Shown: positions 209-64,000 of the stretch, one piece after another
Layout of the letters: each line of letters begins with the position of its first letter
How positions within the stretch are numbered: the first letter of the stretch is position 1
Sequence record: PV467749.1
Length of the DNA: 64,000 nucleotides
Origin: a phage
Strand: one strand, 5' to 3'
Made by a program: the position numbers and the translations under genes
The notes under the pieces: generated by a model
What the model saw: only the letters and a program-made list of their open reading frames with translations
What the model was told of the DNA's origin: nothing
Databases searched by the model: none

Positions 209-498
209 TACAATGTTCCTTTCATAAAGTCAGGGATAACGATTACGATAGAAGGATTATACTCCACATATCCATTCTTTGTCAATAGACTTTTGATATC
301 AGAAATAACATTATCATGTTGTTCCATATCTTTATCGCAGTGAATTTCCAATTCTTTTAGGAAAGGTTGTTTAACTGAAATTGATTGGGTCAGTGTTTGA
401 ATACGCTGCATCATATCAATTGGATCAGGACTAAACTCATTACCAACATAAAGTGTACCAGATGCATCCTTTTCAAGTAAGACTTCTAAAATTTTCAT
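208..498 (-). CDS. hypothetical protein (96 aa)
   Basis: ORF track; ATGA start/stop overlap with upstream gene; same-strand tight packing. Confidence 0.45.
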   Translation of the reverse strand: MKILEVLLEKDASGTLYVGNEFSPDPIDMMQRIQTLTQSISVKQPFLKELEIHCDKDMEQHDNVISDIKSLLTKNGYVEYNPSIVIVIPDFMKGTL

Positions 499-2084: not shown

Positions 2085-2141
2085 TTCGTATATCCTCATT
2101 TGATTAATATAGGAGTATTATACATACTCCATTTTCATGTG

Positions 2142-2285
2142 TCAAGCTTTATAATACGGAAGACTTTTCACTAAAGATTCTGACGTATTATTTTTTACCC
2201 ATGTACTACCGTTGTCATTGGATACATATCCAGTACCATTAACAAACTTACGCATAATACCAGTAAAAATATTAGTATACACCAT
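2142..2285 (-). CDS. small hypothetical protein (about 47 aa)
   Basis: Hand translation: ATG preceded by AAAGGA SD; MVYTNIFTGIMRKFVNGTGYVSNDNGSTWVKNNTSESLVKSLPYYKA. Below ORF-track size cutoff. Confidence 0.3.
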   Translation of the reverse strand: MVYTNIFTGIMRKFVNGTGYVSNDNGSTWVKNNTSESLVKSLPYYKA

Positions 2286-10789: not shown

Positions 10790-11218
10790 TTATAGGGAAG
10801 CTTCGTATTCAGCTACAATGTCAACCATCTCATTGACAAAGTTGATGTGGTCATGAGTTACGGTACGGAAATCATAAACCAGTGATTGTTGGAAGAATAC
10901 GTCTTCAGCCAGATTACCTTCAAAGTTCAGGTCGATGTTTTCTTCATCGTTGGTTGGAGCAACTTTGATATTTAGTTGATTTTCATCAACGACCAATTTC
11001 ACTACACAACCCAATGCAATCGCCAGTACATAGGCAGGTTTCTTAGCTGCTTCAGAACGGAATGGAGCACGTAGTGCACAAATGGTGCTGCTAATCTCAT
11101 CATTCAGTTCTTTATATTTAACGTTAATCATCAGTTCTTCAATTTTGACGCTCTCGATTACACGACCAGTTTCAGCAGCGAAGAAAGAGTGGTTACGGAT
11201 AGTTTGTTCGATATTCAT
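10790..11218 (-). CDS. small protein, EExFFQQST-motif paralog family member
   Basis: ORF track; AEDVFFQQSLVYD motif. Confidence 0.5.
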   Translation of the reverse strand: MNIEQTIRNHSFFAAETGRVIESVKIEELMINVKYKELNDEISSTICALRAPFRSEAAKKPAYVLAIALGCVVKLVVDENQLNIKVAPTNDEENIDLNFEGNLAEDVFFQQSLVYDFRTVTHDHINFVNEMVDIVAEYEASL

Positions 11219-11221
11219 GTG

Positions 11222-11416
11222 TTATTCCTTATATAGATTGCTAAAGTTACGAAGATTACGGTTTGCTTTAAACTGTTTTAAATCACCAAATCTATCATCA
11301 ACGATAAAAGTGGCAGACTGTTTTGATTGGCATATTGTACAAATCAACATACCCTGTATTGTATACTCGGTTGAACAATTTGTACAGTACTTTTTTTCAT
11401 AAAGTTCAGTACTCAT
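11222..11416 (-). CDS. small Cys-rich (zinc-ribbon-like) protein, 64 aa
   Basis: ORF track; CTNC...CTIC pairs. Confidence 0.4.
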   Translation of the reverse strand: MSTELYEKKYCTNCSTEYTIQGMLICTICQSKQSATFIVDDRFGDLKQFKANRNLRNFSNLYKE

Positions 11417-11748
11417 AAAACCTTCACATCACTACGTTTATCTCTTTCTTCTTTCTTTACCTCATCGGAGCGGGTATCTTCTAATTGTAACACAACTTCT
11501 TTCAGAATGTCAACATCAATCATTGCTTCTTTGTATTGAAAGTCGTTTACGCCGAAAATATACTTCAATGCAACCCATACACGTTTGTACCATTTTAAGA
11601 AAGGATTCAAACGCATACTCACCAGACATTGACCAAGTTTATCATCTCCATGTTCTTGTGTCAAGTCAAATTGTGAAATGTGAACACAATGTTCCGTATT
11701 ATCGCCACAACTACAACGCACTATAAATTCTTTGCTGTCTTTGCTCAT
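11413..11748 (-). CDS. hypothetical protein (111 aa)
   Basis: ORF track; ATGA-type overlap with neighbours. Confidence 0.45.
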   Translation of the reverse strand: MSKDSKEFIVRCSCGDNTEHCVHISQFDLTQEHGDDKLGQCLVSMRLNPFLKWYKRVWVALKYIFGVNDFQYKEAMIDVDILKEVVLQLEDTRSDEVKKEERDKRSDVKVL

Positions 11749-12167
11749 ACTGGATAAGCCTTCATAAATTGTTTTAGAACTCCAAACTTAGAAGCACTGT
11801 AATCATACTGATAACTTAGCTCACGTTTATCATTCATTCGATAAACCATATGATTGTTTGGATAACCTATTCTAACAGGTTTGTTAGGATTTGCAAGCAA
11901 AATTGCCCATTCTTTTACAGGAAAAACGTTTTCAGATAACATCTTCACATCTTTACTGTAATACTTCATTGCTTGGGTACAGTGCTTGTAATCTTCAGCA
12001 CTCAGTTCTTCACACACAACACTGTGTGTTTCAGTACTGGATACCCATGACTCTTCTTCATAATATAAGTCAATTACATCTTCTACGGTATAGCTATCAG
12101 GTAAATCATAATATACCCAATTACTAAAACCAGAGCTTACACCAACTCGAATTCGATAGTACTTCAT
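11745..12167 (-). CDS. hypothetical protein (140 aa)
   Basis: ORF track. Confidence 0.45.
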   Translation of the reverse strand: MKYYRIRVGVSSGFSNWVYYDLPDSYTVEDVIDLYYEEESWVSSTETHSVVCEELSAEDYKHCTQAMKYYSKDVKMLSENVFPVKEWAILLANPNKPVRIGYPNNHMVYRMNDKRELSYQYDYSASKFGVLKQFMKAYPV

Positions 12168-12331
12168 ATTTTTTTATCATCCGATTTTACATAATAGTAA
12201 CATACAATGCAGTGAATTACAAGAAGAATAATTTCTACTACATTCAGTGCCACAACATGCCCTTGCGGGACCGTAAGTGACAATAACAACATTATAGTAG
12301 GTATTACGAATATTGTCAATGTTTTTTTCAT
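12164..12331 (-). CDS. small membrane protein (about 55 aa)
   Basis: ORF track 12164..12370; ATG at 12331 has AAGGAAATAAA SD, upstream in-frame extension lies in a duplicated segment without SD; hydrophobic MKKTLTIFVIPTIMLLLSLTV. Confidence 0.4.
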   Translation of the reverse strand: MKKTLTIFVIPTIMLLLSLTVPQGHVVALNVVEIILLVIHCIVCYYYVKSDDKKI

Positions 12332-12417
12332 TTTATTTCCTTGTGGGACCGTAAGTGACAATAACAACATTATAGTAGGTATTACGAATATTGTCCATGT
12401 TTTTTCATTTTATTTCC
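12261..12417. repeat. tandem direct repeat, 2 copies of about 78 bp, near-identical
   Basis: 12261..12338 and 12339..12417 align with about 3 differences (C/T, A/C, one T in a T-run); each copy carries AAGGAAATAAAATG. Confidence 0.7.
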
Positions 12418-12641
12418 TTAATGTAGGCAAATGGTAAAAATACAACCTCTACCCCAGGAAATGCAGTTGCGAGTGCATCAACTATAGATTTGTTTTTATT
12501 ACATTGCCATACTTTTGTAACTTTGTGCTGGAATACCTTGCCATCTTTTACTAACCAATACATTTGCATTTTAACAGTACTGTTATCAGATGGTATTAGT
12601 AAATCTTCCATATCATATGAATTAAAGATTCTCTCGTTCAT
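12405..12641 (-). CDS. hypothetical protein (78 aa)
   Basis: ORF track; C-terminus and stop lie in repeat copy 2. Confidence 0.45.
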   Translation of the reverse strand: MNERIFNSYDMEDLLIPSDNSTVKMQMYWLVKDGKVFQHKVTKVWQCNKNKSIVDALATAFPGVEVVFLPFAYIKEIK

Positions 12642-12900
12642 ATAATCTCCTAGTGAAAAAAGCCAGATTCTTTCTTATATATTCGGCGACACAATCAGTA
12701 GTTTGTGTATTTGTGAATGCAACAACTTCATTCGATACACCATTCCCATTACACAATGGACAAATCCCCATATACTTAGGTGTTGGAACTGTATCTAGTT
12801 TATATTTCCCTGAAGATATCATGTATTGTTGTGGTAATACATCCAAAGAAATAATATAATCTTCATCGAATTGCTTACAACATACCCAACATTTACTCAT
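12622..12900 (-). CDS. small Cys-rich protein (92 aa)
   Basis: ORF track; CWVCC and CPLC motifs. Confidence 0.45.
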   Translation of the reverse strand: MSKCWVCCKQFDEDYIISLDVLPQQYMISSGKYKLDTVPTPKYMGICPLCNGNGVSNEVVAFTNTQTTDCVAEYIRKNLAFFTRRLYERENL

Positions 12901-13384
12901 TGTGGTTCTCCTTCAAAACAATTCTTATATCTTCGAATGTTTTAACAAACCAGTCATGTTCATCAGATACATCAACCACCTTCCCACCATAAACATAGTA
13001 ATGGTAGAAGGGTAACTTACTTTTCCTCAATCGTTCAGCAAGTTCTGGGTTTTGAAATATCTTAGCACATATTGCATCCTGGATACGAGAAATGCATTCG
13101 GGTGTCATTTCAATACGGTCGTGCATATACTTGTTCGCCGCTGCTTTTGCAGCAGCACCCGACACTTTTCTAAGATCATCATGTTTCTGGCCTGTTAAAA
13201 ACCAAAAATAAAAAGTTTCTACCGATGGGAACCAACCGTATGGTTCTAAGGTAAAACTATGTGACGAAAAGTTAGATAGATCCCTACCTAACTTAGTTTT
13301 AGCTTTACTATAGATATTAATGTGTCTGTATCCGTCATCAGTAGGGTCAATATAGTTAAATGACTCTTCAGGAAATTCAAACAT
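12893..13384 (-). CDS. NADAR (YbiA/DUF1768)-like protein
   Basis: By-eye match to E. coli YbiA as recalled from memory: INIYS...LSNFS...PYGWFPSVETFYFW and AKIFQNPELAERL versus INFYS...FSNFA...WPTSEHYFQAQKF and AKFEQHAELRALL. Confidence 0.6.
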   Translation of the reverse strand: MFEFPEESFNYIDPTDDGYRHINIYSKAKTKLGRDLSNFSSHSFTLEPYGWFPSVETFYFWFLTGQKHDDLRKVSGAAAKAAANKYMHDRIEMTPECISRIQDAICAKIFQNPELAERLRKSKLPFYHYYVYGGKVVDVSDEHDWFVKTFEDIRIVLKENHNE

Positions 13385-13386
13385 AA

Positions 13387-13740
13387 TTACTCTTCTTCAC
13401 CAGATGGTGTACCACGCAGTTTATCAAAATCAACCCAAATACCATGCTGGTTTTTGAAGCGACATTTCTCATAGTACCAGCTATAGTCGGTTTCAACACC
13501 CTGAGAAATTGAACGAACACTACAGTCATACATATTGTATAAATGTGTACGTACAATGAATGTTCCTATAAGAAGAACAAACACAACAATCCCAGTACAG
13601 ATCTTTGGATGATCCATAATTAGGTCCAACACAGAACTGGTTTCAGTACTATCAATTTTACTACGACCGATAGCAACAACTTTCAGTACTGCTAATGATA
13701 CCAGTAATGAAATAACAAGAACACTCAAATAAATTAGCAT
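13387..13740 (-). CDS. membrane protein (117 aa, two predicted TM segments)
   Basis: ORF track; hydrophobic LIYLSVLVISLLVSLAVLKVVAI and GIVVFVLLIGTFIV. Confidence 0.45.
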   Translation of the reverse strand: MLIYLSVLVISLLVSLAVLKVVAIGRSKIDSTETSSVLDLIMDHPKICTGIVVFVLLIGTFIVRTHLYNMYDCSVRSISQGVETDYSWYYEKCRFKNQHGIWVDFDKLRGTPSGEEE

Positions 13741-13742
13741 AT

Positions 13743-14327
13743 TTAGACTCCTACCCCAAAACGTAAAAGGATGTTATTAACAAACACAAAATCAAATGGA
13801 GACTTTGGTTCAGATACCGAGTACTGGAAAGTTTCAGTGGCAAAATTTTCCCTATTATGCCATGTTGATGAATCGATTAGTAATTGTTTATCACCAATTG
13901 ACGTTGAATGTAATGGGACGTGTGCTGATGAATTTATAGAATACGCATTTAGTTTTCCTTGTTCATCAAATGTAACACAAAGGTAATATCTCTTCTTAAC
14001 ATCAGGAGAACGCTCTTTAATATACGAATATATTGATTCATTCAAATCATCATCATTCCTTGTCTTAGCACCGAGAACTTGAGCAAAAGACAAATTACGT
14101 TTCGGTTGGATCGTTCCTGGTCTTTTTAGAATGAATTCTTTTGTTAAGTAAAAGTTATTGTGTTTTACCTCAATATTAACAGTTTTAAAGTTTGTGATTT
14201 TGTCATATACGTTCCTAAAAACTGTTATATCCCATGAACTAATTTCTTGCATCGTTACCGTAACTAGTTCTTCTAGTTCTTGGATAAATGGCAAATCGTC
14301 TTGATCAAATCTAATCACAGTTTTCAT
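13743..14327 (-). CDS. hypothetical protein (194 aa)
   Basis: ORF track. Confidence 0.45.
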   Translation of the reverse strand: MKTVIRFDQDDLPFIQELEELVTVTMQEISSWDITVFRNVYDKITNFKTVNIEVKHNNFYLTKEFILKRPGTIQPKRNLSFAQVLGAKTRNDDDLNESIYSYIKERSPDVKKRYYLCVTFDEQGKLNAYSINSSAHVPLHSTSIGDKQLLIDSSTWHNRENFATETFQYSVSEPKSPFDFVFVNNILLRFGVGV

Positions 14328-17311: not shown

Positions 17312-17355
17312 AAGAGTGCGTTTCAATAAGAACATTATATTGAAAACGCACTCTT
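17312..17355 (-). terminator. long hairpin (about 17-bp stem, 7-nt loop) followed by U-tract on minus strand
   Basis: AAGAGTGCGTTTCAATA-agaacat-TATTGAAAACGCACTCTT; minus strand continues TTTTTT; between 17366.. gene and exonuclease gene. Confidence 0.45.
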
Positions 17356-17365
17356 GTGTCAACTA

Positions 17366-31449: not shown

Positions 31450-32243
31450 TTATTTTACCAGAAGTAATTGTAATTCAGCACTAGGACTAAATTCATCATC
31501 ACTCCAGTACTTGTGAACCTTCTCTGGACTAGCCTTAGCCAATACTTCACCACCACCTACAATGTAGACTTGGTGTGAACCAATCAATCGGGTCCAGAAT
31601 TTAATTGCATCATCTGTGTGAAGACTGTCACTTAGTACTTTAATACCATGAGAAACCATATCCATAAAGATATTATAGATGATACCTTTAGTACCAGTTT
31701 TAGAGGCCGTAGCAGAAATCTCAAACACTTGTGGTACACCAACCACTGCATCATTCGACAAATGTCCACTAACGATAGCAAGCTGTTTACCCGCTTTATC
31801 ATAGGCAATAAACCCAGTACCATTCTTATTCATAAACACATCATAATCTTTGTGTTCTGCGAACTTAACCATGTTGTGCTTACCTGTCATCTCGGCAGTT
31901 TTGTCAACGAACTCGTCACGGTCTTGGCCTTGGAAACTATCGAAACGTTGTGGCATTTCTTCCAATTTCTCTTTATGGTCTTCTTCACATGAATCCATTA
32001 TATCACTAGTTCTGTCTTCTGTATCAGCTAATTCTGCATCTTGTACAATATCAACCAAACCACGCATACTAGATTCTTTTACTTTATTAGGGAGTTTTGA
32101 ACCTTTCTTAAGATTTCCCTCTTTTTCATCGGCTGCATTCCACTCTTTTGCTGCACTTTGTGAAATCCCTGCTTTTTTGGCGAATTCAGGATTATGGGCA
32201 GCAGCAGCGAAGAATTTCGCTTGGCTTTTACTTTTACTTGGCA

Positions 32244-35487: not shown

Positions 35488-35556
35488 GTAATAAAAGCTC
35501 CGATATGGTTTTAATGTTCAATTCGATAGTAATTATAGCTAAGAACTAATGTTCTG

Positions 35557-35751
35557 TCAAGCACTATCATTATGTTTTTTAATTGCTTCACAGATTGCTT
35601 GAACTTGCACTAGATAAGTTTTAGCAAACTCTGCTTGAGTACGCACACGTGGATTTGGTGCGTCTTTGATCATAAGTTCTAAATCATAAACTACTTTATC
35701 GAAAACACCCTTGTCTTCAATAATACGATCATAAAAGGTTTTGTCAGTCAT
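35557..35751 (-). CDS. hypothetical protein (64 aa)
   Basis: ORF track. Confidence 0.35.
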   Translation of the reverse strand: MTDKTFYDRIIEDKGVFDKVVYDLELMIKDAPNPRVRTQAEFAKTYLVQVQAICEAIKKHNDSA

Positions 35752-63830: not shown

Positions 63831-64000
63831 TTACTTACCTTGTTGTTTCAAACGAGCAACTAGTGCAGATGCAGAAAGTTGTTCTTTTGGAGCTTCAGCT
63901 ACTGGTGCTGGTGCAGCAGCTACTGGTTCAGCAGCAGGAGTAGGAGTAGCTACTGGTGCTTGCGGAGCAGGAGTTTGTGCAGGAGCAGGTTGTTGTACTG
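63831..64000 (-). CDS. hypothetical protein, C-terminal part only (Pro/Ala-rich linker; continues past right window edge)
   Basis: Hand translation ...QQPAPAQTPAPQAPVATPTPAAEPVAAAPAPVAEAPKEQLSASALVARLKQQGK-stop; open to window edge. Confidence 0.45.
   Translation of the reverse strand, partial: VQQPAPAQTPAPQAPVATPTPAAEPVAAAPAPVAEAPKEQLSASALVARLKQQGK

What the first reader, a model, noticed from the sequence alone, without database searches (positions are those of the whole stretch)
12261..12417. 78-bp tandem duplication spanning a gene junction, creating a second ribosome-binding site and start
Two adjacent near-identical copies (about three differences, including one in a T-run that shifts frame). 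Each carries AAGGAAATAAAATG. Copy 2 encodes the C-terminus and stop of gene 12405..12641; copy 1 provides the SD and start of the small membrane gene 12164..12331. The duplication therefore generated an in-frame upstream extension and a short dead-end ORF (MKKHGQYS). This looks like a recent duplication or slipped recombination that may be unstable or phase-variable.
Basis: seen in the sequence. Interest (0 to 1): 0.45.

Follow-up and report, generated by a model that had tools for sequence, protein, structure and literature searches.

The report
Inherited 78-bp duplication doubling a promoter
A jumbo E. coli phage carries a real, inherited 78-base tandem duplication at a gene junction; besides a ribosome-binding site and start codon, it copies a likely host-type promoter hidden in the start of a small membrane-protein gene, an ordinary kind of event with a possible regulatory side effect.

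Summary
Window 12261..12419 holds two head-to-tail copies of a 78-bp unit (77 + 78 nt, plus a closing AAGG) with exactly three differences.

The window is an Asteriusvirus jumbo coliphage with its genes on the minus strand. Seven other independent assemblies carry the same junction, and six of them the same A7-to-A6 frameshift. All outgroups I aligned, and most close relatives, have one copy. So it is a derived, inherited allele and not an assembly artefact. It probably arose by illegitimate recombination at a 4-bp AAGG microhomology.

- Downstream copy: TTGACA-N17-TATAAT, 12 of 12 matches.
- Upstream copy: TGGACA-N17-TATAAT, 11 of 12 matches.

Such sites are strongly enriched, and only on the coding strand. 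This one sits at the same place in the gene in distant relatives.

In the single-copy state the promoter lies inside gene B. After the duplication, one copy sits 37 nt upstream of an intact ribosome-binding site and start codon of gene B. The frameshift turns the upstream start into an 8-codon dead end, so the native 55-aa protein is still made.

Promoter activity is inferred, not shown. Phase variation is not supported. Interest is low to moderate.

The parts
12405..12641 (-). Gene A (78 aa, homologue of 121Q gp75, unknown function). Its last four codons and its TGA stop lie in the upstream repeat copy and are unchanged by the duplication.
   Evidence: ORF list. Matches phrog_13902, function unknown, E = 3e-30. 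Annotated in all relatives.
12343..12419 (-). Upstream repeat copy (77 nt). It contains AAGGAA, the ATG at 12408, an A6 run, TGGACA-N17-TATAAT and codons 15-21. As a coding start for gene B it is dead.
12265..12342 (-). Downstream repeat copy (78 nt). It contains AAGGAA, the ATG at 12331, an A7 run and TTGACA-N17-TATAAT. It provides the working start of gene B.
12261..12264 (-). Closing AAGG. Together with the AAGG at 12419..12416, it is the 4-bp microhomology that brackets the unit in the single-copy ancestor. The junction AAGG is at 12342..12339.
   Evidence: Alignment of single-copy and duplicated genomes.
12382..12408 (-). Dead-end ORF MKKHGQYS-stop. It is opened by the upstream ATG, which overlaps the gene A stop (ATGA), and results from the A7-to-A6 frameshift at 12400..12405.
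   Evidence: Sequence. Six of the seven other carriers also have A6; Ecwhy_1 has A7.
12369..12397 (-). Predicted promoter P-up: TGGACA (12397..12392), N17, TATAAT (12374..12369), 11 of 12 matches. Predicted transcription start near 12362, which is 31 nt before the gene B ATG.
   Evidence: Transcription not measured.
12291..12319 (-). Predicted promoter P-down: TTGACA (12319..12314), N17, TATAAT (12296..12291), 12 of 12 matches. It lies within codons 4-14 of gene B. Predicted transcription start near 12284, which would serve the next gene.
   Evidence: Transcription not measured.
12164..12331 (-). Gene B (55 aa, homologue of 121Q gp76). A small protein with two hydrophobic segments, under purifying selection, function unknown. 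Its ribosome-binding site AAGGAA is at 12342..12337.
   Evidence: dN/dS 0.11-0.31 for comparisons with the window's gene, and hydropathy profile. No Pfam or PHROG family.
11745..12167 (-). Next gene (140 aa, homologue of 121Q gp77). It is the first complete gene downstream of P-down.
   Evidence: Matches phrog_15599. Its start lies 123 nt after the -10 hexamer of P-down.

Best explanation
This is a real, heritable 78-bp tandem duplication in an Asteriusvirus jumbo coliphage.

How it arose (inferred). Illegitimate recombination or replication slippage joined two AAGG tetranucleotides that bracket the unit in the single-copy ancestor.

What the unit holds. It carries the last codons and the stop of gene A, and the ribosome-binding site, start codon and first 21 codons of gene B. 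Embedded in codons 4-14 of gene B is a sigma-70-type promoter preceded by an A-rich tract.

Consequences:
1. Gene A is unchanged.
2. A 1-nt loss in the A-run of the upstream copy disconnects that copy from gene B. It leaves an 8-codon dead-end ORF that takes over the ATGA coupling with gene A. The native 55-aa protein is made from the downstream start, rather than an 81-aa protein with an extra hydrophobic segment.
3. The embedded promoter is doubled. In the single-copy state its transcripts start inside gene B and can only serve the next gene. After the duplication, the upstream copy lies 37 nt ahead of an intact ribosome-binding site and ATG of gene B. Gene B therefore gains a promoter of its own, which is promoter capture by tandem duplication.

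Shown: the anatomy, the derived state, inheritance, recombinational spread, and the enrichment and conservation of the promoter motif. Inferred: promoter activity, the transcription start sites, and any fitness effect.
For: The repeat is real.

It is derived. The 13 single-copy relatives in the alignment are Turkey3, WPEC3, vB_Ec-M-J, CMSTMSU, TH47, ph0011, 121Q and UE-S1. A4 is also single copy, as are 17 further Logan, ENA and NCBI loci.

It is inherited. Eight carriers share the same junction, and seven share A6. The carriers are the window, fEgEco12, Ecwhy_1, EC.P1, BF17, WPEC5, ENA ERZ27268735 and GCA_022711855.1. Recorded countries of origin include Finland, China, Poland and Thailand.

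It has spread by recombination. Four-gamete patterns occur with SNPs 270 bp to the left and 900 bp to the right. Its distribution does not follow whole-genome similarity: fEgEco12 is 91.4 similar to BF17 (duplicated) but 94.4 to vB_Ec-M-J (single copy) (PMC13070987).

The AAGG microhomology is visible in the single-copy sequences.

Promoter evidence:
- The two sites score 12 of 12 and 11 of 12.
- The window has 5 sites at 12/12 and 16 at 11/12, all on the coding strand. Simulated sequences give 0.11 and 3.8 for both strands together.
- Eleven such sites lie inside gene bodies, against 0.97 +/- 1.02 in codon-order shuffles, with a maximum of 4 in 200 shuffles.
- About half of the sites lie 17-67 nt before a gene start. 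P-up lies 37 nt before gene B.
- The 20 nt upstream of the -35 hexamer hold 15 A. The other sites average 9.0 and random 20-mers 6.9.
- Phage A4, only 70% identical in this protein, has a perfect TTGACA-N17-TATAAT at the same place. TATAAT is unchanged in every locus examined, although codon 11 encodes T, I, A or V.
- Related jumbo phages are reported to use such promoters: CBB by prediction (PMC5259590), and PA5oct with RNA-seq start sites and rifampicin sensitivity (PMC7318152).

Gene B is a real gene. dN/dS is 0.11-0.31 for the comparisons involving the window's gene; 121Q against UE-S1 gives 0.60.
Against: - No transcription data exist for this phage group at this locus. Promoter activity and start sites are predictions.
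- TATAAT overlaps the conserved Ile-Met codons, so part of its conservation could be a coding constraint.
- In UE-S1 the -35 hexamer is poor (TGGATT), so the promoter is not universal in the genus.
- Most natural isolates do without the duplication, so any benefit is small or conditional.
- TTGACA also occurs in single-copy alleles (L014, L015, L018). The change to a perfect -35 is therefore not tied to the duplication.
- Nothing shows whether gene B needs more or earlier expression.
Confidence: 0.6

Rival explanations
1. A neutral scar. The duplication is a real microhomology-mediated accident with no regulatory consequence. The frameshift merely restored the original protein, and the allele drifts and hitch-hikes in a recombining phage population. 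The promoter-like motif is either inactive or makes no difference when doubled.
For: - Most relatives have a single copy.
- The copies differ mainly at sites that are ordinary population polymorphisms.
- The transcript shows no RNA structure signal: z-scores 0.64, -0.46 and -1.25.
- Gene A and gene B products are unchanged in seven of the eight carriers.
Against: - Consensus sigma-70 sites are about 11-fold enriched inside genes on the coding strand, and this one is conserved in phage A4. An inactive motif is therefore unlikely.
- Both promoter copies stay intact in all eight carriers. In two of them the upstream copy has even become 12 of 12.
- The allele persists across countries and genomic backgrounds.
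Confidence: 0.3
2. An unstable or phase-variable switch. Copy number of the 78-bp unit, or the length of the A-run, changes at high frequency. The phage would then toggle between the 55-aa protein, an 81-aa three-segment fusion, and the single-copy state.
For: - Ecwhy_1 has A7 in the upstream copy, giving an annotated 81-aa fusion.
- Single-copy alleles identical to the downstream copy exist (L014, L015, L018). They could be deletion revertants from a crossover in the first 20 nt of the unit.
- The two copies share a perfect 51-nt stretch, which could support recombination between them.
Against: - Seven of eight independent carriers have the identical A6 state.
- From general knowledge, a run of 6-7 A is short for a contingency tract.
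- The single-copy alleles that match the downstream copy sit on three different flanking haplotypes. Both of their diagnostic SNPs also segregate separately in single-copy phages, so they are at least as well explained as pre-existing alleles.
- No assembly shows three copies.
- Ecwhy_1 is an UNVERIFIED record, and the T20M change in its upstream copy also occurs in a single-copy allele (L019). That points to recombination rather than slippage.
Confidence: 0.07
3. Low-level ribosomal -1 slippage, or transcriptional slippage, on the A6 run restores the frame. A minor 81-aa isoform would then be made alongside the 55-aa protein.
For: A single -1 shift on AAA-AAA directly after the ATG at 12408 restores the gene B frame (sequence). 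The full-length 81-aa frame is otherwise open, as Ecwhy_1 shows.
Against: - There is no stimulatory structure: folds are not better than shuffles.
- The site is at codons 2-3, which is atypical for programmed frameshifting.
- A6 is a short tract.
- There is no conservation argument, because the state is only as old as the duplication.
- fEgEco12 and GCA_022711855.1 have TGA as the fifth codon of the zero frame (MKKH-stop). That does not block the -1 frame, so it does not decide the question.
Confidence: 0.03

Closest known systems
Promoter capture by microhomology-mediated tandem duplication in bacteria. Examples: activation of horizontally transferred genes (PMC6614815, PMC11111574) and, as cited in PMC6614815, activation of the silent citrate transporter gene in the E. 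coli long-term evolution experiment.
   Same: A head-to-tail duplication with a few bases of microhomology at the break points places an existing promoter upstream of a complete coding region that previously lay upstream of it, or around it.
   Different: - Here the unit is only 78 bp.
- The promoter lies inside the very gene it would now drive.
- The event is seen as a natural polymorphism in phages, not under laboratory selection.
- Increased expression has not been measured.
RpoD (sigma-70)-type early promoters of RaK2/121Q-like jumbo phages: CBB, predicted, with an UP-like element (PMC5259590), and PA5oct, TTGAC / TATAATA motifs at RNA-seq start sites with rifampicin-sensitive growth (PMC7318152).
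   Same: TTGACA-N17-TATAAT consensus with an A-rich upstream tract. The sites are arrayed on the coding strand in a block of short genes of unknown function.
   Different: This site lies within the first 14 codons of a gene rather than in a spacer, and it is present as a tandem pair 77 nt apart. No start-site data exist for Asteriusvirus.
ATGA stop/start overlap (translational coupling) between adjacent phage genes. This rests on general knowledge.
   Same: In the single-copy state the gene A stop TGA overlaps the gene B ATG, as in many compact phage operons.
   Different: In duplication carriers the overlap now leads into an 8-codon dead-end ORF. The real gene B start lies 51 nt beyond the stop of that ORF, behind its own ribosome-binding site, so coupling is presumably lost.

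Membership tests
Microhomology-mediated tandem duplication | Two head-to-tail copies with no spacer | tested here: met
   TRF period 78, 2.1 copies, 96% matches. The copies abut at 12343/12342.
Microhomology-mediated tandem duplication | A short direct repeat brackets the unit in the unduplicated sequence, and a single copy of it sits at the junction | tested here: met
   AAGG lies at both ends of the unit in Turkey3, WPEC3, vB_Ec-M-J and TH47. In carriers the pattern is AAGG, unit, AAGG, unit, AAGG.
Microhomology-mediated tandem duplication | The single-copy state is ancestral (present in outgroups) | tested here: met
   ph0011, 121Q, UE-S1 and A4 are all single copy. The 121Q-clade hits span about 1915 bp instead of 2001.
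Sigma-70 (RpoD) type promoter | -35 TTGACA and -10 TATAAT separated by 17 +/- 1 bp | tested here: met
   12 of 12 matches at 12319..12291 and 11 of 12 at 12397..12369, both with a 17-bp spacer.
Sigma-70 (RpoD) type promoter | More frequent than chance and biased to the coding strand in this genome | tested here: met
   21 sites at 11/12 or better, all on the coding strand, against about 3.9 expected on both strands. Eleven are intragenic against 0.97 in codon-order shuffles.
Sigma-70 (RpoD) type promoter | Conserved in relatives beyond what the coding sequence requires | tested here: inconclusive
   A4 has 12/12 at the same position despite a diverged spacer. TATAAT is invariant, and the third base of codon 11 is always T although the amino acid varies. 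However, the -35 is weak in 121Q (10/12) and poor in UE-S1, and the Ile-Met codons constrain the -10.
Sigma-70 (RpoD) type promoter | Transcription starts 6-8 nt after the -10 hexamer and depends on host RNA polymerase | not testable with these tools
   Needs 5'-end mapping or reporter assays. Only related phages have such data (PMC7318152).
Promoter capture by duplication | After the event a promoter lies upstream of a complete ribosome-binding site and ORF that it did not precede before | tested here: met
   In the single-copy state the -10 lies inside gene B, at codons 12-14. In carriers the P-up -10 ends at 12369, 37 nt before the ATG at 12331, with AAGGAA in between.
Promoter capture by duplication | Expression of the captured gene rises | not testable with these tools
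   No expression data.
Phase-variable (contingency) locus | Repeat-tract length or copy number differs among closely related isolates or within a population | tested here: inconclusive
   Upstream A-run: A6 in 7 carriers, A7 in 1 (an UNVERIFIED record). Unit copy number is 1 or 2 among isolates, but it follows an inherited haplotype. Variation within a population could not be tested because no reads are available.
Phase-variable (contingency) locus | A long, mutation-prone simple repeat, typically 8 or more units of a homopolymer | tested here: not met
   The runs are 6 and 7 A. The threshold is from general knowledge.

The most novel reading that the evidence does not exclude
The duplication is an adaptive regulatory rewiring that is spreading by recombination among co-circulating Asteriusvirus phages. 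By copying a promoter embedded in the first codons of gene B, the phage gave this small membrane protein its own early, host-polymerase-driven transcript and doubled the promoter for the genes downstream. The A-run frameshift was then selected because it removes a harmful 81-aa three-segment fusion. This would be a natural example in a phage of a gene capturing the promoter that sits inside it.
Probability: 0.2. Interest if true: 0.5.

Novelty: new member of a known kind. Interest (0 to 1): 0.3.

Why it matters
- Annotation. Four different gene calls for the same small gene (55, 68, 77 and 81 aa) sit in public records of near-identical phages. The comparison shows that the 55-aa reading is the conserved one.
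- A usable natural experiment. Isolates on the same host that differ in this allele, such as WPEC3 and WPEC5, could show whether a 78-bp duplication can re-wire early transcription in a jumbo phage. They could also show how often promoters embedded in coding sequence are functional.
- Limits. It does not touch a long-standing open question, and the mechanism class is well known.

Tried and rejected
- Exact searches for the junction 27-mer and for a 36-mer of the unit found nothing in IMG/VR, JGI metagenome contigs or GTDB genome contigs. All comparative data therefore come from GenBank phages and the protein-indexed assemblies.
- Rfam found no family anywhere in the window.
- No intrinsic terminator-like site lies in 11000..14000.
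- RNA folding of the predicted 5' leader, the whole repeat and the leader of the next gene was no better than shuffles. An attenuator or riboswitch-like reading was dropped.
- Pfam and PHROG scans gave no function for gene B. There were only sub-threshold hits to RseC_MucC and DUF6007, which reflect hydrophobic segments. Gene A matches only an unknown-function PHROG.
- 'The differences between the copies measure the age of the duplication' was rejected. Both substitutions segregate in single-copy alleles in all combinations.
- 'Single-copy close relatives are deletion revertants' was considered. It is unlikely for the A7 / TGGACA / CCCAC alleles, because no single crossover between an A6-type upstream copy and the downstream copy yields that combination. 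It cannot be excluded for the TTGACA / CCCGC single-copy alleles.
- Collapse of the repeat by a k = 31 assembler was also considered for those alleles. It was judged unlikely by reasoning alone: carriers' reads contain no k-mer joining the upstream flank to A7 + TTGACA.

Full report
**What the window is.** A 2-kb stretch around the finding is 99.4-99.8% identical to the Escherichia jumbo phages fEgEco12, Ecwhy_1, EC.P1, BF17, Turkey3, WPEC5, WPEC3 and vB_Ec-M-J. It is about 81% identical to the 121Q/PBECO4 group, genus Asteriusvirus. The whole 64-kb window is a one-directional block of about 91 mostly short genes on the minus strand, about 92% coding. All features below are read on the minus strand.

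- Tandem Repeats Finder gives 12261..12419, period 78, 2.1 copies, 96% matches, score 295. No other array in the window scores above 56.
- Upstream copy: 12419..12343 (77 nt). Downstream copy: 12342..12265 (78 nt). A closing AAGG follows at 12264..12261.
- The copies differ at exactly three places: A6 (12405..12400) against A7 (12328..12322), G at 12396 against T at 12318, and A at 12344 against G at 12266.
Gene A (12641..12405) stops at a TGA that overlaps the upstream ATG at 12408. That ATG opens MKKHGQYS-stop. Gene B, 55 aa with two hydrophobic segments, starts at 12331. An in-frame 68-aa ORF starts at 12370.

**Derived, inherited, not an artefact.** I aligned the junction from 13 annotated relatives.
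- One copy: Turkey3, WPEC3, vB_Ec-M-J, CMSTMSU, TH47, ph0011, 121Q and UE-S1. A4 is also single copy.
- Two copies: fEgEco12, Ecwhy_1, EC.P1, BF17 and WPEC5, all with the same junction (...GGTCCCACAAGGAAATAAAATG...).
- The protein search and contig look-ups added two more carriers: an ENA metagenome contig and a contig of GCA_022711855.1. They also added 17 more single-copy loci.
- In total there are eight independent assemblies with the duplication. Recorded origins include Finland, China, Poland and Thailand. This excludes an assembly artefact.
- Seven of the eight share the A6 frameshift in the upstream copy, which argues for a single origin.
- In the single-copy sequences the unit is bracketed by AAGG on both sides, and one AAGG sits at the junction of the duplicated form. 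This is the signature of illegitimate recombination or slippage at a 4-bp microhomology. The mechanism is inferred.

**Population picture.**
- Flanking SNPs are mosaic. All four combinations of duplication state and flanking allele occur with sites 270 bp to the left (11997) and 900 bp to the right (13238).
- The duplication does not follow whole-genome similarity. fEgEco12 is 91.4 similar to BF17 (duplicated) but 94.4 to vB_Ec-M-J (single copy) (PMC13070987). The allele has therefore been moved among co-circulating phages by homologous recombination, or is an old polymorphism.
- Both substitutions that distinguish the copies also segregate among single-copy phages. All three of TGGACA+CCCAC, TGGACA+CCCGC and TTGACA+CCCGC exist in single-copy form.
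- Only the A6 run is specific to upstream copies. The differences between the copies therefore do not date the event. It may have arisen between two different alleles in a mixed infection, or the copies may have been converted later.
- The carriers fall into at least four sub-haplotypes: the window type, fEgEco12, GCA_022711855.1 and Ecwhy_1.

The consensus scan found a perfect sigma-70 promoter in the downstream copy: TTGACA 12319..12314, a 17-nt spacer, then TATAAT 12296..12291. The upstream copy scores 11 of 12, with TGGACA at 12397..12392. This is unlikely to be coincidence:
- Across the window there are 5 sites at 12/12 and 16 at 11/12, every one on the coding strand. Simulated sequences give 0.11 and 3.8 for both strands together.
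- Eleven sites lie wholly inside gene bodies. Shuffling codon order within genes gives 0.97 +/- 1.02, with a maximum of 4 in 200 shuffles.
- About half of the sites lie 17-67 nt ahead of a gene start.
- Their upstream 20 nt are A-rich, averaging 9.0 A against 6.9 for random 20-mers. The repeat's own sites are the most A-rich, at 15 of 20.
- Phage A4, only 70% identical in this protein, has a perfect TTGACA-N17-TATAAT at the same codons with a diverged spacer.
- TATAAT is unchanged in every locus examined, including the third base of codon 11, although that codon encodes T, I, A or V.
- Related jumbo phages are reported to use such promoters for blocks of short early genes: CBB by prediction (PMC5259590), and PA5oct with RNA-seq start sites and rifampicin sensitivity (PMC7318152).

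**How it most likely works.** In the single-copy state the promoter occupies codons 4-14 of gene B. Its transcripts would start near codon 16, so they can only serve the next gene, which starts at 12167, 123 nt after the -10 hexamer. After the duplication:
- The upstream promoter copy ends at 12369. Its predicted start, near 12362, lies 31 nt before the intact AAGGAA and ATG (12331) of gene B. This is the same geometry as the window's other promoter-gene pairs. Gene B thus gains its own promoter, and the downstream genes see two promoters in tandem.
- On read-through transcripts from further upstream, the ATGA overlap now leads into the 8-codon ORF. Gene B must then be initiated independently at its own ribosome-binding site, 51 nt beyond that ORF's stop.
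- Without the frameshift, the product would be an 81-aa protein with an extra N-terminal hydrophobic segment and a lysine-rich linker, as annotated in Ecwhy_1. It probably has an altered membrane topology. I infer that the frameshift was favoured because it restores the native 55-aa protein.
- Gene B is a genuine gene under purifying selection. dN/dS is 0.11-0.31 for the comparisons involving the window's gene; 121Q against UE-S1 gives 0.60. Its function is unknown.
- Promoter activity, start sites and any benefit are inferred, not shown.

**Rivals.**
- Neutral scar: the most serious alternative, at about 0.3. Most natural isolates lack the duplication, and no expression data exist.
- Unstable or phase-variable locus: not supported. 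Seven of eight carriers share the A6 state, and the runs are short. The single-copy alleles that resemble the downstream copy sit on three different flanking haplotypes. Still, they could be deletion revertants, and variation within a population could not be examined.
- Slippage-generated 81-aa isoform: possible in principle, with no supporting feature.
- Assembly artefact: excluded.

**Comparison with what is known.** Microhomology-mediated tandem duplications that capture promoters are well documented in bacteria (PMC6614815; PMC11111574). Arrays of sigma-70-type early promoters are described for related jumbo phages. This locus is a small natural example of these known kinds. Its unusual feature is that the captured promoter lies inside the gene it would now drive. 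The fEgEco12 genome paper mentions neither the duplication nor promoters.

**Verdict.** The duplication is real and inherited. It is best described as a duplicated module of ribosome-binding site, start codon and embedded promoter, with its upstream coding start disabled. Interest is low to moderate (0.3). It is a new member of a known kind.

Noticed in passing
window, whole length, minus strand (for example 35560..35532, 17362..17334, 2145..2117, 285..256): There are 21 sigma-70 consensus sites with 11 or 12 of 12 matches, all on the coding strand and none on the other. Eleven lie inside coding sequences, an 11-fold excess over codon-order shuffles. The block looks like an early region driven by host RNA polymerase, with promoters embedded in genes.
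   Followed up: partly
L002 (Ecwhy_1, MH791411.1), upstream repeat copy, locus about 1430-1510: Ecwhy_1 has three private differences inside the 78-bp upstream copy: A7 instead of A6, plus two non-synonymous changes (I7L, T20M). It has none in the other ~2.9 kb compared. The result is an annotated 81-aa three-segment fusion. T20M also occurs in a single-copy Logan allele (L019). The clustering is unexplained, and the record is flagged UNVERIFIED.
   Followed up: partly
L001, L003, L004, L006 and L002, annotations of the gene B homologue: Near-identical DNA is annotated with four different gene B products. They are 55 aa (BF17, WPEC5), 68 aa (EC.P1), 77 aa from a TTG start (fEgEco12) and 81 aa (Ecwhy_1).
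   Followed up: yes
L009 (CMSTMSU, MH494197.1): This record shows several 1-nt homopolymer deletions relative to all relatives, including A6 in its single-copy gene B start, and its gene calls are fragmented. These are probably sequencing errors, so I did not use its A6 as evidence.
   Followed up: partly
Protein cluster of P0003, member P0018 (ENA, 525 aa): A 525-aa protein is grouped at 90% identity with the 55-aa gene B family. It may be a fused or mis-called ORF on a 30-kb metagenome contig.
   Followed up: no
window 12622..12900 and 12893..13384 (minus strand): The 92-aa Cys-rich protein is labelled 'DNA primase/helicase' in fEgEco12, and the 163-aa protein 'NADAR domain-containing' in Turkey3. 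Neither gave a Pfam hit at E <= 0.1 here; both matched only unknown-function PHROGs.
   Followed up: partly
window 63896..63937 and 32001..32041: Two short 21-bp, two-copy tandem repeats (TRF scores 56 and 52). The first consists of CAG/GCA-rich codon-like units.
   Followed up: no
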